A stretch of 43,828 nt of DNA from a virus, in the IMG/VR virus record IMGVR_UViG_3300031718_000141, positions 1 through 43,828 of that record; one strand, given 5' to 3'. Under the pieces are notes generated by a model. The model saw only the letters and a program-made list of their open reading frames with translations. It was not told the origin of the DNA and did not search any database. Shown piece after piece: positions 1-43,828 of this stretch (position 1 is its first letter; each line of letters starts with the position of its first letter). The translations under genes were made by a program, and so were the position numbers.

Positions 1-127
1 TTGCGCTGGGTCTCAAACCTCACCCGTAGTTCCAGCACATCTTGGAAGGCCGGACTCCATCCCCAATCGCCCTTCTTTGGCGGGTCCTTGGCCCATCCGG
101 TCGCAGCCGTCATGCATCCAGCCAACT
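1..127. repeat. Terminal direct repeat, copy A (identical to 43702..43828). Implies a circularly closed assembly with unit length 43701 bp.
   Basis: Read by eye: bases 1-127 (ttgcgctgggtctcaaacc...catgcatccagccaact) recur exactly at 43702-43828. Confidence 0.95.
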
Positions 128-5210: not shown

Positions 5211-5828
5211 TTAGACCAGCTTTCCGTCTGTCAGTTCAGCGAGAAACTCGCGTTGCAACGCGCCCATTTTGTCTTCTTGCTCGACAACCTTGCCAATCAT
5301 GGCGACTAGCCAAATGCGGTCGCCTTTCCACTTGTCAAGTCTGTAAGTGGCATGTAACGTTCCGGCACTACAGAGATTCAATGGGCCGGGAACGGTCTGG
5401 ACAAGACCAACATGGGCAGCGGTACCAGTTCCGCCATTCGCCGGTTTCCCGTCTTTGTCGGATTTCCAGTAGGCCAGCTTTGCGCCTTCGCGGAGCAGCT
5501 TTTTGGCTCTAGCTTTGCGTTCTTTCGGCAGCATGGCTAGGAAACAAACAGTAGCTTCCTTTAAGCCGTCGCCGTCGCCGTAGCCGTAGCCGGAGCCGTA
5601 GCCGTAGCCGGAGCCGGAGCCGTAGCCGTCGCCGTAGCCGTAGCCGTCGCCGTAGCCGTAGCCGTCGCCGTAGCCGTAGCCGGAGCCGGAGCCGTAGCCG
5701 GAGCCGTAGCCGTAGCCGTAGCCGGAGCCGGAGCCGTAGCCGTAGCCGTAGCCGGAGCCGTAGCCGTAGCCGTAGCCGGAGCCGGAGCCGTCGCCGTATG
5801 TCAGAGTGCCCAAGGGGACTTCTCCCAC
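5211..5828 (-). CDS. Gly-Tyr repeat protein, about 205 aa: N-terminal (X-Gly)39 array plus a C-terminal globular domain containing LCSAGTLHAT
   Basis: ORF track. Only non-ATG starts are available (GTG 5828, or TTG 5813 with a GGGAG SD). TAA stop. The repeat is in frame with a normal-looking C-terminal domain. Confidence 0.6.
   Translation of the reverse strand: MGEVPLGTLTYGDGSGSGYGYGYGSGYGYGYGSGSGYGYGYGSGYGSGSGYGYGDGYGYGDGYGYGDGYGSGSGYGYGSGYGYGDGDGLKEATVCFLAMLPKERKARAKKLLREGAKLAYWKSDKDGKPANGGTGTAAHVGLVQTVPGPLNLCSAGTLHATYRLDKWKGDRIWLVAMIGKVVEQEDKMGALQREFLAELTDGKLV
5565..5798 (-). repeat. Tandem 6-nt periodic repeat (GGC TAC / GGC TCC / GGC GAC units) encoding (X-Gly)39
   Basis: Plus strand reads gccgtagccgtagccggagcc... 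for about 234 nt. Confidence 0.95.
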
Positions 5829-11187: not shown

Positions 11188-11354
11188 GGTTTTTGGGCCA
11201 GGTCGTCCTGATTTTTCTGCTTTGCGCGAGCGGGGCGTGGATACTAGCGGCTCTTTTGGCTTTTGCCTGGAACGTGCAGCCGGTGGATTTCAATTCACGG
11301 TTCATTACGTTTCTGTCGTGGATTGTTCCGCGTCCGAGGTATGCTAAGCGCTAA
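11184..11354 (+). CDS. small membrane protein, 56 aa
   Basis: ORF 11142..11354 trimmed to ATG 11184 (ATGA overlap). One TM helix. TAATG overlap with the terminase gene. Confidence 0.5.
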   Translation: MRFLGQVVLIFLLCASGAWILAALLAFAWNVQPVDFNSRFITFLSWIVPRPRYAKR

Positions 11355-12910
11355 TGGGCGTACGCAAGGGCGAACTCGACTTCAAAACCTTCATCGAGAA
11401 TCTGCCGCGCGCGCCCAAACAGCATAAATTTCTCGCCGCTGAAAACCGCATGGCCGCGATTGTCGGTGGCCGTGGCTCTGGAAAGTCCGTCGTTCTCTGC
11501 ATCTCTGCCCAAACCTTTGCCGCCAACGACCCAAACGGCATGTCCCTGATAGGCCGTCTCAACATGCCAGCGCTTGAAACCTCCACCATGCAGATTTTCC
11601 TGGAACTGGTAGAGGAAGGCTGGGGCGATTGGCAGGATTCCAAGAAGATTTTCCAGTGGAAGAACGGCCACCAGACGATTTTCAAGCATTTGGACATCAC
11701 CGACCCCAAAGTGGTGGGCCATATCAAGTCCATGAATCTGTCAGCAGCCTTTATTGATGAGGCGGTCGAGATTTCGGAGGAAATCTACTTCGTCATCCTC
11801 GGCGGAGTGCGCAGAAAGACCGCTCCCAGAAGAATTATCAGGCTAGCGTCGAATCCGGCAGGCCATGATTGGGTCTGGAGGCACTTTTTCGACCCGAACC
11901 GCAAAAAAGCGCTACAGGACAACCTCGGAATCACTATGTCGTCGATGGACAACGTGTTCTTGCCAGAGGAAACCATCGAAAACATGCTCAATACCTACCC
12001 TCCCGACTGGGCGGACCGGTTTATTTATGGCTCTTTCGCAGATTTCAGTGACTTAATCTTCAAAGAATTTAGCGAGGTGACGCATGTCTGGGACGAAACC
12101 AAGGAATACGACATCTTCGGAGGAACGCAAAACCCTCCTAACGATTGGCCGGTCATTGTCGGGATGGACATTGGAGGTGGTGAAGAAGGGGACCCTTGGG
12201 CCATACCAATCATCGCTGTGGCGCCAGATGGTCGCCTGTATCAGTACGACGAAGTTTACGGTTCCGGTCTCCGAATCAAACCAATCTCCGAGGAAATGCA
12301 CGCTAAAATTGGAAGTCACCCTATCGAGGGAATAGCCTATGACTACGCGCAAAGAGCCGCCGCGATGGAACTCGAAGAACACGGCATCTACGGCCAGCCC
12401 GCACTCAAGGAAGTCACTCCCGGCCTCTTCAAAACCGAGCAATATATGCACGTTGACCCTCGACTTGTCCACCCATTTAATCCCACGGTTAATGGCAGCC
12501 CTCGATACTTTATCTCTTCGCGGTGCCGACACACTCTCCGTGAGCTACCCGCTTACAAATGGGCAAAAGATAGGTCTGGCAACCCGAAGTTCGAGCCTGC
12601 CCATGAAAATTCCCACTGCCCATCCGCCATCCGGTACGCGATACATACTTTTAGACCGGAGCCAGAAAAGATTGCTCCCGCCAAAGCCTGGCAGAACCCC
12701 GCGCTCAATGAAATGAGTCGCCTCTACTGGTTCGAGCTGGCGAAGAAAGCGCAGTCACGCTATCCCGACAAAGGCCAGAAAATCATGACCGCGCAGGAGT
12801 GGGCGAACGTGCATGAAGTGGAAAACGCCGAACAACCCGTCATCCGCAACTTCCAGCGTTCAAGATTTACTAGATTTATCAAGCCTGCTGTGTTACGTTC
12901 GCGGCAGTAG
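11354..12910 (+). CDS. terL: terminase large subunit, 518 aa
   Basis: Walker A GGRGSGKS, Walker B-like AAFIDEAVE, C-terminal nuclease-type MDIGGGEEGDPWA. TAG stop embedded in TAGGAGGG. Confidence 0.9.
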   Translation: MGVRKGELDFKTFIENLPRAPKQHKFLAAENRMAAIVGGRGSGKSVVLCISAQTFAANDPNGMSLIGRLNMPALETSTMQIFLELVEEGWGDWQDSKKIFQWKNGHQTIFKHLDITDPKVVGHIKSMNLSAAFIDEAVEISEEIYFVILGGVRRKTAPRRIIRLASNPAGHDWVWRHFFDPNRKKALQDNLGITMSSMDNVFLPEETIENMLNTYPPDWADRFIYGSFADFSDLIFKEFSEVTHVWDETKEYDIFGGTQNPPNDWPVIVGMDIGGGEEGDPWAIPIIAVAPDGRLYQYDEVYGSGLRIKPISEEMHAKIGSHPIEGIAYDYAQRAAAMELEEHGIYGQPALKEVTPGLFKTEQYMHVDPRLVHPFNPTVNGSPRYFISSRCRHTLRELPAYKWAKDRSGNPKFEPAHENSHCPSAIRYAIHTFRPEPEKIAPAKAWQNPALNEMSRLYWFELAKKAQSRYPDKGQKIMTAQEWANVHEVENAEQPVIRNFQRSRFTRFIKPAVLRSRQ

Positions 12911-14206: not shown

Positions 14207-14602
14207 GTGACGAGAGACGAGCGGCTCGCATATGGCAAGTCGTACTATCGGAAAAATCGCACGGAAATGTTGGAGCGCGCCAAGTCTCGCTATGACCACG
14301 AGGAAAATCACGCCTATCAAATAAATCTGCGCTACGGCGTGACTAAGGAAGAATACGCCTCACTGCTAAAGGCGCAGGGCGAAGAATGTGCCATCTGTGA
14401 GAACAGGACCTCCAACAGGCGTACTAAGAAATTAAGCATAGACCACGACCATGAAACCAAGGAAACCAGAGGGCTGCTCTGCGCCAAGTGCAATTTGATT
14501 ATCGGCCTTTGTGGGGAAAACGCGGATATTCTAATCAATGCCGCTAATTACCTCGCCATCTGGAAAGAAGAGGGACGAATTATCAAAGAAGTGGCGGCAT
14601 GA
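14207..14602 (+). CDS. Endonuclease VII-type (T4 endoVII family) HNH nuclease, 131 aa
   Basis: CAICENRTSNRRTKKLSIDHDHETKETRGLLCAKCNLIIG matches the Endonuclease_7 signature. GTG start. Confidence 0.8.
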   Translation: MTRDERLAYGKSYYRKNRTEMLERAKSRYDHEENHAYQINLRYGVTKEEYASLLKAQGEECAICENRTSNRRTKKLSIDHDHETKETRGLLCAKCNLIIGLCGENADILINAANYLAIWKEEGRIIKEVAA

Positions 14603-19259: not shown

Positions 19260-20504
19260 ATGAAGATTTTCTTCAACCCGCGCATTTCAAAGCAATTCAA
19301 CTCCGCCGCTGTGCTCTGGAACCGTTACGCCGACGGCAAGGGCATCCCCATCTCGAATCGCGGCATGGAAATCCCGACGCACCTGAACCCCAACGCGAAC
19401 TTCGATTGGTTCTCGGATGGCGGCACTCTCCCAACGGGAGGTTCCGAAGGTCTGGCGTCGGCGCTGGTTTCGTTTTTCTCCTTTGTTGAAGCGGTGCAGT
19501 TGACCGGCGCGGCGCTCGATGCGGCTGGCAACGATGCGGTGACTTATGCCCGTGCGCTGGCGTTCAACATCAAGATGGCGACCATCAACGCCATCAAGTA
19601 CCTGAACATCTACGCTTTCCTCGACGGCACCGGTTCTCTTGCCACGCTGGGCACGGCGGTGCTTACCTCAACCACCGTCAACTCGACGCTCGTGGCTTCC
19701 GGGTCTATCGAAGGCACGCACTGGCTGCGGCCAGGCATGACCGTGGCTATCCATAACGGCAACTCTGCCACGGTGCGCGGAACAGGGACCATTGTTTCTC
19801 TGGCGGGCGCGATTGAAGACGCCACACAGACCAACTTCGTCATCGGCCCGACGAACGTAGCTTTCACGACCGCGAACGGAGACATTGTTACGGTCACGGC
19901 CACGGTAGGGGCTTCCGATTCCTACAACAACGTCATTTCCGGCCTCAAGTACATCATGGACAACGGGACGATTACCCCGGTGTTCCAGAACATCAACCGC
20001 TCGACGAACCCGCAATACAACGCCGGGTACATTTCGCTTGCCGGGTCTCCGGCGCTTGCCCGCGACCACCTGCGCCGCCTCTTGGCGACGGTCCAGATTC
20101 TACAGGGCCGCGTGTCGCCATCACTTGAACTCATCAGCCATCCGTCACAGCTTCACGCCTACATGGATATGGGCTGGACGCTCAAGCGCTTCAACGACGC
20201 CAACAAGAAGCTCGACCTGGGCTACACCGCTGTCGAGTGGGAAGGCTTCCCGTGGATTATCGACACGGATTGCCCGAAAGACCATATCTTCGGTGCGGAC
20301 CGCGACGTGCTGTTCAAAGTCGTGGCTCGGGAACTAAGCTTTGACGACCGGACCGGTTCGATTCTCCGCCAGGTGCCGTCCTCGACTGCAGGCCAGTACA
20401 CGGATGCGTTTGTGGCGTACCTAATTTTCCGCGGAAATTTGGGAACTTACGTTCCCAACGCTCATGTCAGAGAATTTGGGTTTTCTGTTCCAACGGGTTA
20501 CTAA
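19260..20504 (+). CDS. major capsid protein (HK97-fold expected; by position and size), 414 aa
   Basis: Follows the scaffold gene. Size and composition are typical. Confidence 0.6.
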   Translation: MKIFFNPRISKQFNSAAVLWNRYADGKGIPISNRGMEIPTHLNPNANFDWFSDGGTLPTGGSEGLASALVSFFSFVEAVQLTGAALDAAGNDAVTYARALAFNIKMATINAIKYLNIYAFLDGTGSLATLGTAVLTSTTVNSTLVASGSIEGTHWLRPGMTVAIHNGNSATVRGTGTIVSLAGAIEDATQTNFVIGPTNVAFTTANGDIVTVTATVGASDSYNNVISGLKYIMDNGTITPVFQNINRSTNPQYNAGYISLAGSPALARDHLRRLLATVQILQGRVSPSLELISHPSQLHAYMDMGWTLKRFNDANKKLDLGYTAVEWEGFPWIIDTDCPKDHIFGADRDVLFKVVARELSFDDRTGSILRQVPSSTAGQYTDAFVAYLIFRGNLGTYVPNAHVREFGFSVPTGY

Positions 20505-34789: not shown

Positions 34790-35228
34790 ACTCTTGTTTC
34801 TCGCAGTAGTTTTATTGGCTTTGTGGCCGCAGAATCCCGGTACCACACATTCAAACGGGAGCGGCGCACCGGTAGGTTCGTGCATATCCGGCAGTTCCTA
34901 CGTAGACAGCGCGACCGGAAACCACTGGGCTTGCACCGGCTTAGCTTGGAAGCTTATGGCGTCAGGGGTGGCACTGAGTGGAACGACCGGTTCAATCGGC
35001 GGAGGATTGCTGACCGCTGGCGGGACTGCTTCAGGAACGGTCACTGTCACGGGGGCTACCGTAGGCATGGTTTGCACCGCACAGCCTAGCGATGGCACCA
35101 ACATCTACGCGTTAGGAGCAAATGTCGGTTGTACCGTAACGGCGACCAATACGGTTACGGTGAACGTGGTGGCCATAGTTGCTTTAACGCCTGTTGCAAA
35201 AACCTACGTAGTGAGGGTGATTCAATGA
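34779..35228 (+). CDS. secreted/anchored Gly-Thr-rich protein, 149 aa (GTG start)
   Basis: N-terminus MQIKLLFLAVVLLALWPQ. Confidence 0.55.
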   Translation: MQIKLLFLAVVLLALWPQNPGTTHSNGSGAPVGSCISGSSYVDSATGNHWACTGLAWKLMASGVALSGTTGSIGGGLLTAGGTASGTVTVTGATVGMVCTAQPSDGTNIYALGANVGCTVTATNTVTVNVVAIVALTPVAKTYVVRVIQ

Positions 35229-37255: not shown

Positions 37256-37489
37256 ATGAAGAAAGCATTCGCAGCACTCGCTGTCTTGATTACGCTGGTA
37301 GGCTATAGCGCCTGGAATTGCCGCGTGCGCATCCCTTTGTCCAACATTTATGTGTGGACGATGTTCAAGCCCAAACCTCGGCTGTGGGGCAATGCTGTGG
37401 AGTTCGACCATCACGGCTGGCAGGAGATTTGCCTGGCTGAAAACGGCAAAGCAAAGTGCGTCCCGCTTGTAAAGGCGTCGCCGCAATGA
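37256..37489 (+). CDS. small secreted/membrane protein, 77 aa
   Basis: AGGAGA SD. N-terminus MKKAFAALAVLITLVGYSAWNC. Confidence 0.5.
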   Translation: MKKAFAALAVLITLVGYSAWNCRVRIPLSNIYVWTMFKPKPRLWGNAVEFDHHGWQEICLAENGKAKCVPLVKASPQ

Positions 37490-40891: not shown

Positions 40892-40939
40892 AAAATTGGC
40901 GCGCCCGGTGGTACTTAAACCCGCACAGCGCTAGCAGCC

Positions 40940-40954
40940 GGGCGCATGGCGCCC
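40940..40954. terminator. GC hairpin GGGCGC-atg-GCGCCC between the convergent blocks; possible terminator (weak T tract)
   Basis: Perfect 6-bp stem read by eye. Lies between the two copies of ATTGGCGCGCC. Confidence 0.3.
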
Positions 40955-40963
40955 CGTTCTCAA

Positions 40964-41380
40964 TTAAGAGACTGATTGCTCAGCCGGGGCATTGGCGCGC
41001 CAAGAGGGAGTCGAACCCTCAACCTGCCCAGTTAGAGTGGGCCGCTCTGCCAGTTGAGCTACAGGCGCGTAAACTCGGTAATGCTTCAGTACTTCTCTCT
41101 GCTCGCCGCGAATCGGAGCCGTCGCAATCGCTGTAAATCCCAAGTCAAAATCAGGCTCCGTCCATTCGTAATGAGGGATGCCGTTGTCCCTCAGTTTCTT
41201 GGCGGTCTTGAGCAGTGAGCGCACGTTGGGCAAGCCAATCAGGACGATGTTCGGGCAGCCCGTCTCATGCCGAATCGAGACAAGCTGGTAGATGGCGTGA
41301 TTGGATTGGACGATTTGTTGCGCGAAAGTAATATCGGTGCGGACGAAAACGTAAACGTAGGAATCAGGAATCTATGACAT
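40964..41380 (-). CDS. PTH2-like (peptidyl-tRNA hydrolase 2 fold) protein. ATG-TCA-TAG opening with an in-frame amber at codon 3; the frame has no stop before the tRNA and only closes at TAA 40966-40964.
   Basis: Hand-translated. Domain codons 41371..41069 read IPDSYVYVFVRTDITFAQQIVQSNHA...PNIVLIGLPNVRSLLKTAKKLRDNGIP...FTAIATAP...VLKHYRVY. The ORF track sees only the TTG-started 3' part (40964..41233). Confidence 0.6.
40993..41068 (-). tRNA. tRNA with anticodon CUA (amber suppressor), 76 nt, CCA encoded
   Basis: Hand fold of GCGCCTG-TA-GCTC-AACTGGCA-GAGC-G-GCCCA-CTCTAAC-TGGGC-AGGTT-GAGGG-TTCGACT-CCCTC-TTGGCGC-G-CCA. All stems are Watson-Crick except U6.U67 and G7.U66. U8, A14, G18G19, A21, U33, A37 and the T-loop are conserved. 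The anticodon is at 41035-41033. Confidence 0.85.
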
Positions 41381-41386
41381 GTGCGC

Positions 41387-41415
41387 ATTCTAGAAAATCC
41401 CTCAAACACTGTCAA
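41387..41415 (-). promoter_or_regulatory. near-consensus sigma70-like promoter TTGACA - 17 nt - TAGAAT, then 6 nt to the ATG (leaderless)
   Basis: Minus strand: TTGACA 41415-41410, TAGAAT 41392-41387, ATG 41380-41378. Confidence 0.6.
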
Positions 41416-41425
41416 GCAAAATCCG

Positions 41426-41842
41426 CTAACCTTCCTCGACCGCTTGCTGCACGTTGTCGCCGTTATTGCTTGGCGGGTAGGTCTTGCCATGGCGCAACTG
41501 GAAGTGGAAGTGCTCGTTGTCCGTGCCCGCGTTCTCCAGCCAGCCGAAAAAGTAGTCCGTCACATAGCCGCCAGAGTTGACTATCGGCGTTCCAAAGTGA
41601 GCTAAAACCTTGTCCACGAAAACGGATTTAGTTACCTCGTCCATGTCATGCGAGCGCACGTCGTAGGCGCATCCGGCGTGGTGCGGGTCGAGGTTCCCGC
41701 TGTGCATCCCGTCCGTGCCCGAGGTGATTACTAGGTCGCGTCCCATCTCCTGTCCCGTCTCCCACAGAGCCGCCAGCAAAGCAAATCCTGAAGGAGCGAT
41801 GATTGAGAATTGCACACCCGGCGCTACCGTTATGACGTTCAT
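41426..41842 (-). CDS. endolysin, zinc peptidase M15 (VanY/L-Ala-D-Glu peptidase-like), 138 aa
   Basis: ITSGTDGMHSGNLDPHHAGCAYDV...EHFHFQL gives the H-x-D and H-x-H metal ligands. ATGA overlap with the holin. TAG stop. Confidence 0.65.
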   Translation of the reverse strand: MNVITVAPGVQFSIIAPSGFALLAALWETGQEMGRDLVITSGTDGMHSGNLDPHHAGCAYDVRSHDMDEVTKSVFVDKVLAHFGTPIVNSGGYVTDYFFGWLENAGTDNEHFHFQLRHGKTYPPSNNGDNVQQAVEEG

Positions 41843-42042
41843 ATACTCGCTTTCTTTTCAATCCGCCTGACGTACCAGCGTAGAGCGTCGTTCACCATGC
41901 ACAAGCCCGCGTGGACGCCCAGCAGCACTATGAGAATTGTAGCGCCCCATTTACAAACGGAGTCGTTCTCAGAGTGAAGCAGAAGGCAAAGCACGAGCGT
42001 GAATGTCCACCAAGGCACGTTTTTGTCATATCGGCTGTCCAT
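41839..42042 (-). CDS. holin (two TM helices, basic C-terminus), 67 aa
   Basis: WWTFTLVLCLLLH and GATILIVLLGVHAGLCMV, then RWYVRRIEKK. Sits immediately upstream of the endolysin. Confidence 0.6.
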   Translation of the reverse strand: MDSRYDKNVPWWTFTLVLCLLLHSENDSVCKWGATILIVLLGVHAGLCMVNDALRWYVRRIEKKASI

Positions 42043-42179: not shown

Positions 42180-42617
42180 CTATGAAAGCTGGTTGATATT
42201 GCCGCCGGTGGCCGGTGTCGTCAGCAAGGGCACTGTGGCCGTCGCTGTGACTGCCGTGCCGTCCGAGGCTGTTCCTGCCACCGTCAAGGTGTAGCTCGTG
42301 AGCGTGTCCGCCACCGCATCCACCGCCGTCACCGTGTTCCCCGTGGGGTCCGATGCCAGAGGAGTCAGCGTCAGGCCGGGGTCACTCGAACTCCAGTTGA
42401 CCGCCGCGCCCGGTGTCATGCCGCCGTTCCACACCACCTGAAATACGCTCGTTCCGCCAATCTTCGTGCCGGTAATCGCCATCTGTTTTTCTCCTTGAAA
42501 GATTTTGCCGCCCGTTGCTGGCCTGCGAAGAAGAGAATGCGCCAAGGACACCAGTTCTTCAAGAGCATTTGCGATGCGTCCCAGGTCGAAATCGGCTAGT
42601 TTGTCCCATTCGCTCAT
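42180..42617 (-). CDS. Ig-like (Big_2-like) domain protein, 145 aa, with a strong internal start at 42482 (100-aa form)
   Basis: ORF track. AAGGAG lies 8 nt before the internal ATG. The Thr/Ala/Val-rich beta-sandwich-like C-terminal part is the Ig-like region. TAG stop. Confidence 0.6.
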   Translation of the reverse strand: MSEWDKLADFDLGRIANALEELVSLAHSLLRRPATGGKIFQGEKQMAITGTKIGGTSVFQVVWNGGMTPGAAVNWSSSDPGLTLTPLASDPTGNTVTAVDAVADTLTSYTLTVAGTASDGTAVTATATVPLLTTPATGGNINQLS

Positions 42618-42754
42618 GCTTTCCGCCTGTGCGTTACGCCGATGTAGAACAGCAAAATAGGCACACTGAACGGAGCCAGCAACTGCAAAAAGCCGTACAG
42701 GTACACAGCCAATGTCCCTGCCAGCCCCAGCCAGTCCTTGAGCGCGTGAAGCAT
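42614..42754 (-). CDS. small membrane protein, 46 aa (MLHALKDWLGLAGTLAVYLYGFLQLLAPFSVPILLFYIGVTHRRKA)
   Basis: Hand-translated. TAATG overlap upstream and ATGA overlap downstream. Confidence 0.4.
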   Translation of the reverse strand: MLHALKDWLGLAGTLAVYLYGFLQLLAPFSVPILLFYIGVTHRRKA

Positions 42755-42960
42755 TAGCTCTTAGGCGGATTCAGCGCGGCCATCATCGCCGTGTAAGCGG
42801 TATCGTTGCCCTGCGTCACAGTCTGAACCTGTGCAGCCAAGGCATCGTCAGTCAATCCGCTCTGCGAGCGCAAATTACCAATCCAGCCGAGCAGCGAATT
42901 TAGAAGCGTGAGTGCGAGGGTAATGTCTCCGGTTACGGGTCCTGCTGGTGTTGTTGCCAT
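42754..42960 (-). CDS. hypothetical protein, 68 aa
   Basis: ORF 42754..42963. ATG 42960 is in a TGATG overlap (or GTG 42963). Confidence 0.5.
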   Translation of the reverse strand: MATTPAGPVTGDITLALTLLNSLLGWIGNLRSQSGLTDDALAAQVQTVTQGNDTAYTAMMAALNPPKS

Positions 42961-43394
42961 CACTTTCCGCCTAGTCCCGTCAACAGGGCGCTGATTCCGG
43001 TGCTTACGCCTGTGACGATTGCTTGAATGTCGGCCTGCGCGTTAGGGTTGCTGACGTGAATGAGCGCTAGTTCCGTGGGGTTGGTGAGCGTGGCCTGAAA
43101 GGTCTGAGCGCACGCGGTATAGGCTCCGGCAGCGTTCCCGGCTGTATGGGCCGACTGAGCGCAAGAGGCAAAAGCCCCATTCCCGTCATTGGCAAATTTC
43201 AGCCAACCAAGAACGTTTGTCTCTTCCTGTACCGTGATGGTCCCATTTACCCGCAGAGCATCTACAGACTTCATGCCCGCCGCGATGCCGTTACCGATGT
43301 TGAGCGCGGCCTTCTCGCAAGCCCCGTAGTTGTCGGCGCACCCACCGAGCAGGAACGTCAGCACCGCAAAAATGGCCCATTTTCCTTTCTTCAT
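42960..43394 (-). CDS. lipoprotein, 144 aa
   Basis: MKKGKWAIFAVLTFLLGGC gives a signal peptide plus lipobox LGGC. GAGGTG SD. Confidence 0.65.
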   Translation of the reverse strand: MKKGKWAIFAVLTFLLGGCADNYGACEKAALNIGNGIAAGMKSVDALRVNGTITVQEETNVLGWLKFANDGNGAFASCAQSAHTAGNAAGAYTACAQTFQATLTNPTELALIHVSNPNAQADIQAIVTGVSTGISALLTGLGGK

Positions 43395-43441
43395 CAAGTC
43401 ACCTCACGTTGGATTTTACTCGTACTTTGGCCCTTGTCACG

Positions 43442-43559: not shown

Positions 43560-43828
43560 CTACTGAACTTTCAGGTTCAACGTCCAATCTATTGCGCTCT
43601 TGGCCTCGGCAATCCATTTTTCCGCGTCTGCTCGCGTAGGACCGCCGTGGGATACGTGCGCGAAGGCCGACTCGACTAGGGCCAATCCGCTTTCCAATGC
43701 CTTGCGCTGGGTCTCAAACCTCACCCGTAGTTCCAGCACATCTTGGAAGGCCGGACTCCATCCCCAATCGCCCTTCTTTGGCGGGTCCTTGGCCCATCCG
43801 GTCGCAGCCGTCATGCATCCAGCCAACT
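43560..43828 (-). CDS. 3' part of the wrap-around hypothetical gene (see 1..164)
   Basis: ORF track 43560..43826. The true ATG lies at position 164 of the circle. TAG stop. Confidence 0.6.
   Translation of the reverse strand, partial: LAGCMTAATGWAKDPPKKGDWGWSPAFQDVLELRVRFETQRKALESGLALVESAFAHVSHGGPTRADAEKWIAEAKSAIDWTLNLKVQ
43702..43828. repeat. Terminal direct repeat, copy B (identical to 1..127).
   Basis: Exact 127-nt match to the start of the window. Confidence 0.95.

What the first reader, a model, noticed from the sequence alone, without database searches (positions are those of the whole stretch)
40993..41068. Canonical amber-suppressor tRNA (anticodon CUA) in a genome that otherwise uses TAG as a normal stop
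The hand fold gives a standard 76-nt cloverleaf with encoded CCA and anticodon loop C-U-CUA-A-C.

From established work on stop-codon-recoded phages, phage suppressor tRNAs usually accompany genome-wide reassignment, with many in-frame recoded stops in late genes. Here I found only one in-frame TAG, in the adjacent PTH2-like gene. I counted 14 genes that terminate at TAG, several with a start or an SD immediately after the stop. So the tRNA does not look like part of a recoded genome.

The D-arm (GTAGCTCAACTGGCAGAGC), the discriminator G73 and the loop CTCTAAC resemble a bacterial tRNA-Trp (CTCCAAA) carrying a C35-to-U change. This is from memory and is low confidence.
Basis: partly seen in the sequence, partly recalled or inferred. 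Interest (0 to 1): 0.75.

Follow-up and report, generated by a model that had tools for sequence, protein, structure and literature searches.

The report
Self-gated amber-suppressor tRNA module
A soil phage that uses the normal genetic code carries a real stop-codon-reading (amber suppressor) tRNA, and this tRNA is physically fused to, and apparently needed to translate, a small tRNA-hydrolase-like gene that begins with a deliberate UAG stop; the same design recurs in over a hundred phages, including cultured ones.

Summary
A canonical 76-nt tRNA with anticodon CUA and encoded CCA lies at 40993-41068, on the minus strand (ARAGORN; Rfam 60.8 bits).

The window is a complete ~43.7-kb tailed-phage genome in the standard code. 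TAG ends about 15 genes, including the large terminase, and it interchanges with TAA and TGA in close relatives.

The single in-frame TAG is not an oddity. It is codon 3 of the upstream PTH2-fold gene. An early in-frame stop is conserved in 101 of 106 distinct homologue contexts (30-72% identity). It is TAG in 99, and 73 of those have CUA tRNAs nearby. It is TGA in the two loci that carry a UCA tRNA instead.

In the window's clade the gene has three further features:
- a consensus sigma-70 promoter placed to give a leaderless mRNA;
- no stop codon before the tRNA, which starts at the nucleotide after the last domain codon;
- an open frame through the tRNA that ends in the loop of one of two CCA-ending mini tRNA-like hairpins.

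I read this as a self-contained suppression module. Hydrolase synthesis is gated by the suppressor, and translation and tRNA maturation probably compete on one transcript. The coupling is well supported. The direction of feedback, the hydrolase substrate and the inserted amino acid are inferred or unknown.

The parts
41410..41415 (-). -35 box TTGACA of the module's promoter
   Evidence: The consensus scan gives TTGACA, 17 nt, TAGAAT, matching 11 of 12 positions. A TTGACA-like box lies 34-39 nt before the ATG in 37 of 55 near-clade loci, against a 2.5% background.
41387..41392 (-). -10 box TAGAAT. It sits 6 nt before the ATG, so the transcript should start at or next to the A of the ATG, giving a leaderless mRNA.
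   Evidence: There is no Shine-Dalgarno sequence upstream of the ATG in the window.
41378..41380 (-). ATG start codon of the PTH2-fold gene
   Evidence: In 66 of 106 distinct homologue contexts the start codon lies 2 codons before the gate stop.
41372..41374 (-). In-frame TAG at codon 3, the 'gate' codon that the module's own tRNA must read
   Evidence: An early in-frame stop is conserved in 101 of 106 distinct homologue contexts: TAG in 99 and TGA in 2. The TGA cases are exactly the loci with UCA tRNAs.
41069..41371 (-). PTH2-fold hydrolase-like domain, from IPDSYVYVFVRTDI to KHYRVY. No stop codon follows it.
   Evidence: The AlphaFold2 model has pLDDT 90.9. The top 14 Foldseek PDB hits are all PTH2 family, with TM 0.63-0.78. 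Pfam PTH2 scores only 13.6 bits against a cutoff of 23. phrog_34073 matches at 7.5e-12. The family has 868 clusters at E<=1e-10.
40993..41068 (-). tRNA with anticodon CUA (anticodon at 41033-41035) and encoded CCA. Its nucleotide 1 directly follows the last domain codon, TAC.
   Evidence: In homologous abutting tRNAs the cloverleaf is kept, with compensatory changes in 11 of 20 pairs, and CUAA is invariant.
40964..40966 (-). TAA, the first in-frame stop of the ORF. It comes 34 codons after the domain, beyond the whole tRNA, in the second hairpin loop of mini-element B.
40947..40990 (-). Mini tRNA-like element B. It is a Y-shaped RNA with a 6-bp closing stem (GCCCCG/CGGGGC), a hairpin with a GCAA loop, a 3-bp hairpin with a UUAAUU loop, and then G-CCA.
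   Evidence: The fold has z = -3.3. A descriptor search finds 76 such elements on the cassette strand against 10 on the opposite strand in 112 loci, and 48 of them start within 100 nt after the ORF domain. There is no Rfam match.
40897..40945 (-). Mini tRNA-like element A. It has an 8-bp closing stem (GCGCCCGG/CCGGGCGC), a CUAG-containing loop, a GGU-UUAAGU-ACC hairpin, and then G-CCA. The window copy has lost the 5' half of its first hairpin.
   Evidence: In the alignment of 18 homologous elements, 9 of 10 internal pairs show compensatory changes. All homologues fold alike. The window copy itself is not significant when folded alone (z = -0.45).

Best explanation
The tRNA is a functional amber suppressor that belongs to a compact, autonomous phage module. 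It is not part of a recoded genome.

The module has four parts in order:
1. A host-type sigma-70 promoter, placed so that the mRNA starts at the AUG (leaderless).
2. AUG-UCA-UAG followed by a PTH2-fold hydrolase-like ORF.
3. No stop codon, then the tRNA(CUA).
4. Two CCA-ending mini tRNA-like hairpins.

Shown or strongly supported: the UAG at codon 3 is a conserved gate. It can only be passed when a matching suppressor tRNA is active, so hydrolase synthesis is tied to suppressor activity.

Inferred, and my committed mechanism:
- Early on, ribosomes stop at codon 3. The rest of the transcript stays free of ribosomes, folds, and is cut by RNase P and 3' processing into mature suppressor tRNA.
- Once the suppressor accumulates, ribosomes pass the gate, make the hydrolase, and translate on through the tRNA and into the mini-element. 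This unfolds them, so that transcript yields protein instead of tRNA.
- The result is negative feedback that holds suppression at a tolerable level in a genome, and a host, that still use TAG as a stop.
- The hydrolase is the second arm. It is either a clean-up or rescue enzyme for peptidyl-tRNA and stalled-ribosome products of read-through, or a deacylase that limits the suppressor.

The inserted amino acid is unknown.

The confidence of 0.6 is for the module and the gating. For the specific translation-versus-processing feedback I would give about 0.3.
For: The tRNA is real and canonical, and homologous copies show compensatory pair changes.

The genome uses the standard code:
- Coding density is 95% under code 11, and stops are TGA 37, TAA 20, TAG 17.
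- Stops interchange among TAA, TAG and TGA in close relatives.
- No other credible in-frame TAG exists.

The gate:
- An early in-frame stop occurs 2-11 codons after an ATG in 101 of 106 distinct homologue contexts, from 30 to 72% identity.
- The codon after the gate is often not a possible start (AAT, AAA, AAG, GAA), which argues against reinitiation.
- 99 gates are TAG. 73 of those loci hold at least one CUA tRNA within 3-5 kb, and none holds a UCA tRNA.
- The two TGA-gated loci (L065, L180) each hold a UCA tRNA and no CUA tRNA.
- The gate-less homologues L071 and L166 sit next to 5 and 18 tRNAs, none of them a suppressor.
- 94 of 381 tRNAs in these loci are CUA.

The fusion:
- In homologues at 46% identity or more, almost no ORF stops at the domain end. 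Tails of 23-100 codons run into a CCA-ending RNA.
- The tRNA starts 0, 3, 6 or 9 nt after the last domain codon in 21 of 25 cases, by my reading of the junctions printed.
- There is never an in-frame stop before the tRNA 3' end. The one case whose frame would hit U8-A9-G10 has UCAGCU at that position instead.
- The stop falls in the hairpin-2 loop of a mini-element in 23 of 58 loci, including the window.

The PTH2 fold is.

Cultured phages carry the same gate plus a CUA tRNA: GAP32, CBB, fHe-Yen9-04, BF and RsoM2USA.
Against: - Nothing here shows transcription, processing, charging or suppression. Everything is comparative.
- The feedback direction is inference. RNase P may cut co-transcriptionally before any ribosome arrives. 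That would favour the non-stop rival and leave the frame conservation partly explained by shared ancestry of homologous tRNAs.
- Distant homologues (<46% identity, jumbo phages) keep the gate but have normal stops 1-15 codons after the domain and Shine-Dalgarno leaders in 29 of 38 contexts. The fusion is therefore clade-specific and not needed for hydrolase function.
- 26 of 99 TAG-gated loci show no CUA tRNA in the 3-5 kb held. The tRNA may lie elsewhere in those large genomes.
- The canonical PTH2 Gly-Lys loop is missing and the Pfam threshold is not met, so the enzymatic activity is uncertain.
- The window copy of element A is degenerate.
Confidence: 0.6

Rival explanations
1. ArfA-like non-stop control. 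RNase P cuts at tRNA nucleotide 1 and leaves the hydrolase mRNA without a stop codon. Ribosomes that passed the gate stall at the 3' end, so the product is SsrA-tagged by tmRNA and degraded. The hydrolase, acting as a backup ribosome-rescue or peptidyl-tRNA-recycling factor, accumulates only when trans-translation is saturated by suppressor-induced read-through. This model keeps the gate and differs only in what the missing stop codon is for.
For: - No stop codon lies between the domain and the first RNase-P-type substrate (tRNA or mini-element) in nearly all near-clade loci, even where 3-9 nt of spacer would have room for one.
- A permuted tmRNA lies 0.5-4.5 kb upstream on the same strand in 27 homologue loci, 16 of them distinct.
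- Five homologue C-termini end in Ala-Ala, like an SsrA tag: four in one 44-45%-identity subclade, CYAAA, EVEYAA, DVAA and LQEAA, plus KMAA in the cultured phage RsoM2USA.
- Iyer et al. 2021 (PMC7824862) proposed a ribosome-rescue role for phage PTH2.
- The ArfA precedent is from established knowledge: its non-stop mRNA is made by RNase III cleavage and its product is controlled by tmRNA tagging.
Against: - The model does not explain why junction offsets are multiples of 3, or why the frame stays open through the whole tRNA and into the next element. After cleavage the downstream frame would be irrelevant.
- The Ala-Ala tails are confined to a few homologues: 4 of 43 distant tails plus RsoM2USA.
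- A PTH2-fold protein has no known way to sense an empty A site.
- No experiment supports it.
Confidence: 0.22
2. Mini-ORF with reinitiation. AUG-NNN-UAG is a two-codon upstream mini-ORF, like the lambda bar minigenes. The hydrolase starts at the next codon (AUU, GUG or AUG) by termination-reinitiation. The suppressor tRNA has an unrelated role, such as perturbing the host or competing phages.
For: - The codon after the gate is ATT, ATC, ATA, ATG or GTN in most loci.
- From established knowledge, two-codon minigenes provoke peptidyl-tRNA drop-off, which is thematically linked to a peptidyl-tRNA hydrolase.
Against: - The codon after the gate is AAT, AAA, AAG, GAA, CTG or GGG in more than 13 distinct loci, with no start codon before the conserved first beta-strand.
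- The ATG-to-gate distance varies from 2 to 11 codons.
- The stop type follows the suppressor anticodon: TGA with UCA, TAG with CUA, and no stop where there is no suppressor.
Confidence: 0.06
3. Incipient recoding. The phage is an evolutionary intermediate on the way to code 15, following the Borges et al. model. It has acquired a suppressor tRNA, and the TAG in the neighbouring gene is simply the first tolerated in-frame stop.
For: - Borges et al. (bioRxiv 10.1101/2021.08.26.457843) report standard-code relatives of recoded phages that have acquired suppressor tRNAs.
- The module sits just downstream of small membrane-protein genes on the same strand that I guess to be lysis-type genes. This would resemble their 'code change module' upstream of a lysis cassette, but the guess has no database support.
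Against: - The gate sits at the same early position in over 100 diverse phages at 30-72% protein identity, so it is old and selected rather than incidental.
- TAG is not depleted in the window, at 17 of 74 stops.
- G+C is 53-58%, not low.
- No other gene carries an in-frame TAG.
Confidence: 0.05
4. The tRNA is inactive or incidental. It would be a mutated copy of a sense tRNA captured by the phage, with no selected suppressor function.
For: - It is the only tRNA in the genome.
- It has one acceptor-stem mismatch, U6-U67.
- The window's relatives by capsid protein appear to lack the module.
Against: - CUAA is invariant and all four stems covary across homologous tRNAs.
- CUA tRNAs make up 94 of 381 tRNAs around this gene family.
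- The Rfam score is 60.8 bits.
Confidence: 0.03

Closest known systems
Phage suppressor tRNAs and 'code change modules' of stop-codon-recoded phages (Borges et al., bioRxiv 10.1101/2021.08.26.457843; Peters et al., PMC9523058)
   Same: Both have a phage-encoded CUA tRNA that reads UAG in a host using the standard code. Both have translation-related helper genes clustered with the tRNA. In both, in-frame stops serve as a switch for gene expression.
   Different: - The genome here is not recoded, and exactly one gene carries the in-frame stop.
- The helper is a PTH2-fold protein, not a release factor or an aminoacyl-tRNA synthetase.
- The recoded gene is the helper itself, whereas Borges' code-change genes are written in the standard code.
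- The ORF is fused to the tRNA without a stop codon.
prfB (RF2) autoregulation through an early in-frame UGA (established knowledge)
   Same: A translation-factor-type gene carries an early in-frame stop codon. How that stop is decoded reports the cellular activity of the very process the gene product belongs to.
   Different: In prfB the stop is bypassed by +1 frameshifting when RF2 is low. Here the stop must be read by a co-encoded suppressor tRNA, so expression rises with suppressor activity. No frameshift site is involved.
ArfA regulation by a non-stop mRNA and tmRNA (established knowledge; reviews PMC8012679, PMC3989581)
   Same: A rescue-type factor gene is followed by a structured RNA that a housekeeping RNase cleaves, so the mRNA would lack a stop codon. 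There is also a genomic link to tmRNA in relatives.
   Different: The cleavage signal would be a tRNA cut by RNase P, not an RNase III hairpin. The protein has a PTH2 fold and is unrelated to ArfA. Cleavage and tagging have not been shown.
PTH2 peptidyl-tRNA hydrolases of jumbo phages (Iyer et al. 2021, PMC7824862) and archaeal/eukaryotic Pth2 (PDB 1xty, 1q7s, 2zv3, 3erj)
   Same: The fold is the same, with TM 0.63-0.78 and Foldseek probability 1.0. The RxD...HA and D-x-G-x-T motifs are recognisable. Homologues occur in the cultured jumbo phages GAP32, CBB and RaK2.
   Different: - The Pfam threshold is not met.
- The Gly-Lys loop carrying the proposed catalytic Lys is deleted, and a different set of residues is invariant (Q22, H25, N41, E72, D74).
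- The stop-codon gate and the tRNA fusion have not been described. GenBank annotations truncate the gene (GAP32_397) or omit it (RsoM2USA).
Theta (minimal HDV-like) ribozymes downstream of phage tRNAs (Kienbeck et al. 2024, PMC10879173)
   Same: Both are small structured RNAs of about 50 nt placed immediately 3' of phage suppressor tRNAs, and both plausibly define the tRNA 3' end.
   Different: Only 4.5% of theta-associated tRNAs encode CCA, and the ribozyme has a nested double-pseudoknot HDV fold. Here both the tRNA and each element end in N-CCA, and the elements fold as simple three-way junctions that resemble a tRNA without a D arm. They look like RNase P substrates rather than ribozymes. 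There is no Rfam match.

Membership tests
tRNA (Rfam RF00005) | Covariance-model score above the gathering threshold, with a full cloverleaf | tested here: met
   The score is 60.8 bits against 29, covering model positions 1-71. ARAGORN also calls it, and the MFE fold is the cloverleaf.
Amber suppressor tRNA | Anticodon CUA in a 7-nt loop with U33 and a purine at position 37 | tested here: met
   The loop is C-U-CUA-A-C. CUAA is invariant in 16 homologous tRNAs.
Amber suppressor tRNA | Is aminoacylated and decodes UAG in vivo | not testable with these tools
   Support is indirect only: the gate codon type covaries with the suppressor anticodon across loci.
tRNA-Pyl (ARAGORN's label) | Atypical Pyl tRNA architecture (short D-loop, 3-nt variable loop, no G18G19 or T-Psi-C) together with pyl genes | tested here: not met
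   The window tRNA has a canonical D-loop with GG, a 5-nt variable loop and a UUCGA T-loop. No pyl-type gene turned up among the roughly 35 window ORFs scanned against Pfam or PHROGs.
   The best hits are phage tRNA-Asn at 80%, then Arg, Gly and Trp at 74-77%, and E. coli Thr at 74%. No isotype-specific models were available.
Stop-codon-recoded phage (code 15) | Many in-frame TAGs in conserved (late) genes, with TAG not used as a terminator | tested here: not met
   There is one in-frame TAG in the genome. TAG ends TerL and about 14 other genes. Stops interchange among TAA, TAG and TGA in relatives.
PTH2 (Pfam PF01981) | Pfam gathering score | tested here: not met
   The score is 13.6 bits against a cutoff of 23, E 0.078.
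PTH2 (Pfam PF01981) | PTH2 alpha/beta fold | tested here: met
   The model has pLDDT 90.9. The top 14 PDB hits are all PTH2 family, with probability 1.0.
PTH2 (Pfam PF01981) | Conserved catalytic residues (the Lys of the G-K loop and the Asp of D-A-G-x-T; recalled from the literature) | tested here: inconclusive
   The G-K loop is absent in both alignments. The position aligned to the Asp is D or N in the family, while E72, P73 and D74 are invariant.
Theta / HDV-like ribozyme next to a tRNA | Nested double-pseudoknot HDV-like fold starting at the tRNA 3' end, with the tRNA usually lacking CCA | tested here: inconclusive
   No Rfam family matches at E<=10 apart from one chance hit. The elements fold as three-way junctions ending in N-CCA. 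I did not run the published theta descriptor.
ArfA-type non-stop regulation | The mRNA is cleaved upstream of any stop codon and the product is tagged by tmRNA | not testable with these tools
   Only the prerequisite is seen: no stop codon lies before an RNase-P-type substrate.
Stop-codon-gated autoregulated translation gene (prfB-like logic) | A conserved early in-frame stop whose decoding depends on the activity being regulated | tested here: met
   The gate is present in 101 of 106 contexts and its type matches the co-encoded suppressor. The dependence itself is inferred.

The most novel reading that the evidence does not exclude
This would be a previously undescribed kind of translational circuit: a 'tRNA-or-protein' transcript. 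A suppressor tRNA gates, through an early stop codon, the translation of the ORF to which it is fused. The translating ribosome in turn blocks maturation of that same tRNA. Together these set a homeostatic level of stop-codon suppression in phages that keep the standard code. The PTH2-fold enzyme and the CCA-ending mini-tRNAs would be further dedicated components: a clean-up or limiter enzyme, and RNase P punctuation signals or decoys.
Probability: 0.3. Interest if true: 0.9.

Novelty: new variant of a known kind. Interest (0 to 1): 0.8.

Why it matters
Suppressor tRNAs in standard-code phages have been reported repeatedly without any identifiable target. Examples are XacN1 (PMC5852040) and RsoM2USA (PMC8504454), and Borges et al. 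treat such tRNAs as possible precursors of recoding.

This analysis gives them a concrete, conserved client: an early gate codon in a PTH2-fold gene that gene callers truncate or miss.

It suggests that suppression is a regulated activity with its own feedback or safety device, not only a step toward recoding.

It points to new small CCA-ending tRNA-like RNAs.

It shows that ORFs fused in frame to tRNA genes can be selected.

The same gate plus CUA tRNA occurs in cultured phages of Cronobacter, Pectobacterium, Serratia, Yersinia, Erwinia and Ralstonia. The question of what a suppressor tRNA is for becomes directly testable with standard genetics.

There is also a practical consequence. Annotation pipelines should look for this gated gene whenever a phage carries a suppressor tRNA.

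Tried and rejected
- **Isotype assignment.** BLAST against E. coli genomes and GenBank phages gave mixed Asn, Arg, Gly, Trp and Thr hits. Comparison with about 150 tRNAs from related loci found the nearest non-suppressor to be a tRNA-Thr with a low score. I drew no conclusion.
- **Host prediction.** The scan of 185,579 species genomes found only one 3.3-kb MAG contig. There are no prophage copies, so there is no host tRNA set to compare.
- **The module region in the window's close relatives.** I searched with three neighbouring proteins. The right-hand end of the genome is not conserved, so I can only say that capsid-protein relatives are not among the module-bearing IMG/VR contigs.
- **Testing related loci for recoding.** Comparing long-ORF content with and without TAG as a stop did not discriminate at this G+C content, and I abandoned it.
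- **Other read-through clients in the window.**
  - The ORF 37256-37489 starts with its own signal peptide.
  - The frame 34790-35089 is Arg-rich nonsense.
  - 14207-14602 is a stand-alone endonuclease VII.
  - The number of same-frame TAG junctions matches my own estimate of the chance expectation.
- **Endolysin assignment for 41426-41842.** I guessed an M15-like peptidase from a motif. Pfam, PHROGs and a PDB sequence search all found nothing, so it remains an unsupported guess.
- **XacN1 as a solved case.** Its homologue is fused to an HD-like domain and has no gate.
- **SsrA-like Ala-Ala tails as a general feature.** They occur in only a few homologues.
Full report
**1. The observation**

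ARAGORN reports a single tRNA in the 43,828-nt window, at 40993-41068 on the minus strand, with anticodon CTA. Rfam's tRNA model scores 60.8 bits against a gathering score of 29, E 7e-11, over the whole model.

The sequence has an encoded CCA, G73, anticodon loop CUCUAAC, canonical G18G19 and a UUCGA T-loop, and one U6-U67 mismatch. The minimum-energy fold is the cloverleaf.

**2. The genome**

The two ends of the window are identical over 127 nt, so this is a complete genome of about 43.7 kb. It encodes a large terminase (11354-12910) and a major head protein (19260-20504) and an endonuclease VII. Most other proteins have no family match.

Under the standard code, simple ORF calling covers 95% of the sequence. 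Stops are TGA 37, TAA 20 and TAG 17. The terminase ends at TAG.

In 22 relatives whose head protein is 77-100% identical, orthologous genes end interchangeably in TAA, TAG or TGA. The head protein, for example, ends in TAA 14 times, TAG 6 times and TGA twice.

I checked the same-frame ORF pairs that are separated only by TAG:
- One downstream ORF begins with its own signal peptide.
- One upstream 'ORF' is Arg-rich nonsense.
- One is a stand-alone endonuclease VII.

**3. The neighbouring gene**

Directly upstream on the same strand, the frame reads M-S-TAG-IPDSYVYVFVRTDI...KHYRVY. It then continues without a stop codon straight into the tRNA. tRNA nucleotide 1 follows the Tyr codon, and the frame ends at a TAA 34 codons later.

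Sequence evidence for PTH2 is weak: Pfam gives 13.6 bits against a cutoff of 23, and a PDB profile search gives E 0.16. Structural evidence is clear. An AlphaFold2 model built on 19 homologues has pLDDT 90.9, and its 14 best PDB matches are all Pth2-family structures, with TM 0.63-0.78.

The Gly-Lys loop of canonical Pth2 is missing, and a different set of residues is invariant. I therefore call it a PTH2-fold hydrolase-like protein and not a Pth2 enzyme. The family is large, with 868 clusters at E<=1e-10. It is essentially absent from 185,579 species genomes, so it is a phage family.

**4. The gate**

I collected homologous loci from IMG/VR, JGI metagenomes and GenBank phages, giving 158 loci with 106 distinct start contexts.

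- 99 have a TAG 2-11 codons after an ATG, most often as codon 3.
- The identity range is 30-72%, so this single codon is far more conserved than the residues around it.
- The following codon is often ATT, ATC or GTN, but in more than 13 distinct loci it is AAT, AAA, AAG, GAA, CTG or GGG. No start codon then occurs before the conserved first strand. This argues for read-through rather than reinitiation.
- 73 of the 99 TAG loci contain at least one CUA tRNA within the 3-5 kb held, and none contains a UCA tRNA.
- The only two homologues gated by TGA (L065, L180) each have a canonical UCA tRNA and no CUA tRNA.
- The gate-less homologues next to tRNA arrays (L071 with 5 tRNAs, L166 with 18) have no suppressor.
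- Overall, 94 of 381 tRNAs around this gene are CUA.

This three-way match is the main evidence that the gate is decoded by the co-encoded suppressor.

**5. The fusion**

In homologues at 46% identity or more, which are soil and peat phages of about 40-180 kb, the ORF almost never stops at the domain end. Tails of 23-100 codons run into a CCA-ending RNA.

About 28 of these loci have a CUA tRNA abutting the domain. By my reading of the junction sequences printed:
- The tRNA's first nucleotide lies 0, 3, 6 or 9 nt after the last domain codon in 21 of 25 junctions.
- The frame that would meet the universal U8-A9-G10 as a UAG is used once, and in that case the tRNA reads UCAGCU instead.
- No ORF stops before the tRNA 3' end.

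These tRNAs keep the cloverleaf with compensatory changes in 11 of 20 pairs, and CUAA is invariant. Many have non-canonical D- and T-loops and are missed by ARAGORN. Spacers of 3-9 nt that encode sense codons show that a stop codon could have been placed there but was not.

**6. Promoter**

A near-consensus sigma-70 promoter (TTGACA, 17 nt, TAGAAT) ends 6 nt before the ATG. Transcription should therefore start at the A of the ATG, giving a leaderless mRNA. There is no Shine-Dalgarno sequence.

A TTGACA-like box lies 34-39 nt upstream of the ATG in 37 of 55 near-clade loci, against a 2.5% background. Distant homologues have Shine-Dalgarno sequences instead, in 29 of 38 contexts. No other promoter-like site lies between the ATG and the tRNA, so the tRNA is transcribed as the 3' part of this mRNA or of read-through from upstream.

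**7. Mini tRNA-like elements**

Two units follow the tRNA, at 40947-40990 and 40897-40945. Each has a 6-8-bp closing stem, two internal hairpins, one unpaired nucleotide and then CCA.

- Homologous elements in 18 loci fold alike, and 9 of 10 internal pairs show compensatory changes.
- A structural descriptor finds 76 such elements on the cassette strand against 10 on the other strand in 112 loci. 48 of them begin within 100 nt after the ORF domain.
- The ORF's stop codon lies in the second hairpin loop (UUGAGU, UUAAUU) of such an element in 23 of 58 near-clade loci, including the window.
- No Rfam family matches.
- They differ from the theta ribozymes described next to phage tRNAs. Those follow tRNAs lacking CCA and have an HDV-like fold (PMC10879173).

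I interpret them as RNase-P-type substrates that punctuate the transcript. This is inference.

**8. Mechanism**

Well supported: the hydrolase-like protein can be made only when a matching suppressor reads the gate.

My preferred reading of the fusion is competition on one transcript. Without suppressor, ribosomes stop at codon 3 and the RNA folds and is processed into tRNA. With suppressor, ribosomes translate through the tRNA and into the mini-element, giving protein and preventing maturation. This would be negative feedback on suppressor level.

That reading accounts for the early gate, the avoided stop codon, the frame-preserving junctions, and a stop placed beyond the tRNA.

The main rival is an ArfA-like scheme. 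RNase P would create a non-stop mRNA, the product would be SsrA-tagged, and the enzyme would accumulate only when trans-translation is saturated. Support for it:
- the avoided stop codon;
- permuted tmRNA genes upstream of 16 distinct homologue loci;
- Ala-Ala C-termini in one subclade and in RsoM2USA.

It does not explain the frame conservation. The two schemes are not mutually exclusive. Nothing here tests transcription, processing, charging or enzyme activity.

**9. Identity of the tRNA**

Similarity searches give tRNA-Asn of Gordonia phages (80%), then Arg, Gly and Trp (74-77%), and E. coli Thr (74%).

G73 and U35 are compatible with charging by GlnRS, as for many amber suppressors. That is established knowledge and was not tested here.

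**10. What is known**

- Phage PTH2 genes have been noted in jumbo phages as possible ribosome-rescue factors (PMC7824862).
- Suppressor tRNAs in standard-code phages have been reported without targets: XacN1 (PMC5852040) and RsoM2USA (PMC8504454).
- Borges et al. describe code-change modules written in the standard code.
- My full-text searches found no description of a stop-gated PTH2-like gene or of an ORF fused in frame to a suppressor tRNA.

Cultured phages carry the gated gene:
- GAP32 reads MAQ-TAG-NEKTWIYVFVRTD, and the annotated CDS GAP32_397 is N-terminally truncated.
- CBB, fHe-Yen9-04 and BF each have a CUA tRNA 3-4 kb downstream.
- RsoM2USA reads ML-TAG-ISDKTYSYCFIRTD, and the gene is not annotated.
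- The XacN1 homologue is fused to another domain and is not gated.

**11. Verdict**

The interesting part is what surrounds it. This is a conserved, self-gated module that gives the suppressor a dedicated client. It is a new variant within phage suppressor and code-change systems, with a regulatory architecture that I could not find described. I score interest at 0.8.

Noticed in passing
window 40897-40990 (-); related loci such as L013 2829-2880 and L054 718-822: A family of 44-58-nt Y-shaped RNAs. Each has a closing stem, two hairpins, one unpaired nucleotide and then CCA. They lie immediately after the suppressor tRNA or after the ORF. 76 copies sit on the cassette strand against 10 on the opposite strand in 112 loci. 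Some loops carry CUAG at the position an anticodon would occupy. There is no Rfam family for them, and their function is unknown (RNase P punctuation? decoys?).
   Followed up: partly
L012 562-662, L016 3446-3541, L019 3434-3534, L020 3440-3542, L025 3445-3549, L001 3863-3966: tRNAs of about 100 nt, found by Rfam and missed by ARAGORN. In L012, L016, L019 and L020 the anticodon reads CUA by eye, and an insertion of about 30 nt (AGAGCA plus an extra hairpin) follows the anticodon arm. This is either an extra-long variable arm or a duplicated arm.
   Followed up: no
L052 1139-1222; L003/L004 3525-3600; L072 547-625; L034 654-736: tRNA-like genes with 8-nt anticodon loops or odd anticodons (ARAGORN 'tcaa', 'gcaa', 'ata'). 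They abut or closely follow the hydrolase-like ORF in place of a CUA tRNA.
   Followed up: no
L012, L015, L016, L019, L020, L024, L027, L031, L032 (tRNAs abutting the ORF): Many of the fused CUA tRNAs lack the canonical D-loop GG and the T-loop UUC (for example GGUGAAAAUCC) while keeping all four stems. Their 'elbow' contacts appear remodelled. The window's tRNA is canonical.
   Followed up: partly
L002, L005, L006, L010, L056, L065, L085, L089, L134, L135, L137, L141, L147, L150 (upstream of the homologue): Phage-encoded permuted (two-piece) tmRNA genes lie 0.5-4.5 kb upstream on the same strand as the gated gene. Five homologue C-termini end in Ala-Ala like an SsrA tag: ...CYAAA, ...EVEYAA, ...DVAA, ...LQEAA, and ...KMAA in RsoM2USA.
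   Followed up: partly
GenBank JN882285.1 290135-290464 (GAP32); MG752970.1 ~68870-69240 (RsoM2USA): Public annotations mis-handle the gated gene. GAP32_397 is called about 28 codons short, and the RsoM2USA gene is not annotated at all, evidently because of the in-frame TAG.
   Followed up: yes
window 1-127 and 43702-43828: A 127-nt perfect direct repeat at the two ends of the window. The window is a complete circularly assembled (or terminally redundant) genome of about 43.7 kb.
   Followed up: partly
window 5564-5798: The hexanucleotide AGCCGT is repeated about 39 times, at 89% matches, inside the minus-strand ORF 5211-5828. It encodes a long dipeptide repeat in a protein with no family match.
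   Followed up: no
window 41426-42042 (-) and 42614-43397 (-): The genes just upstream of the module on the same strand look like a lysis cluster by eye. There is a 138-aa protein with an SxH..GxAxD...H motif, a 67-aa protein with two hydrophobic segments, and a lipoprotein with an LLGGC lipobox. Pfam, PHROGs and a PDB sequence search gave no support for the 138-aa protein.
   Followed up: partly
AP018399.1 243756-244595 (XacN1 ORF364; L188): In Xanthomonas phage XacN1 the homologous domain is the C-terminal part of a longer protein with an HD-like N-terminal region, and it has no gate codon. The targets of XacN1's two CUA tRNAs therefore remain unexplained.
   Followed up: partly
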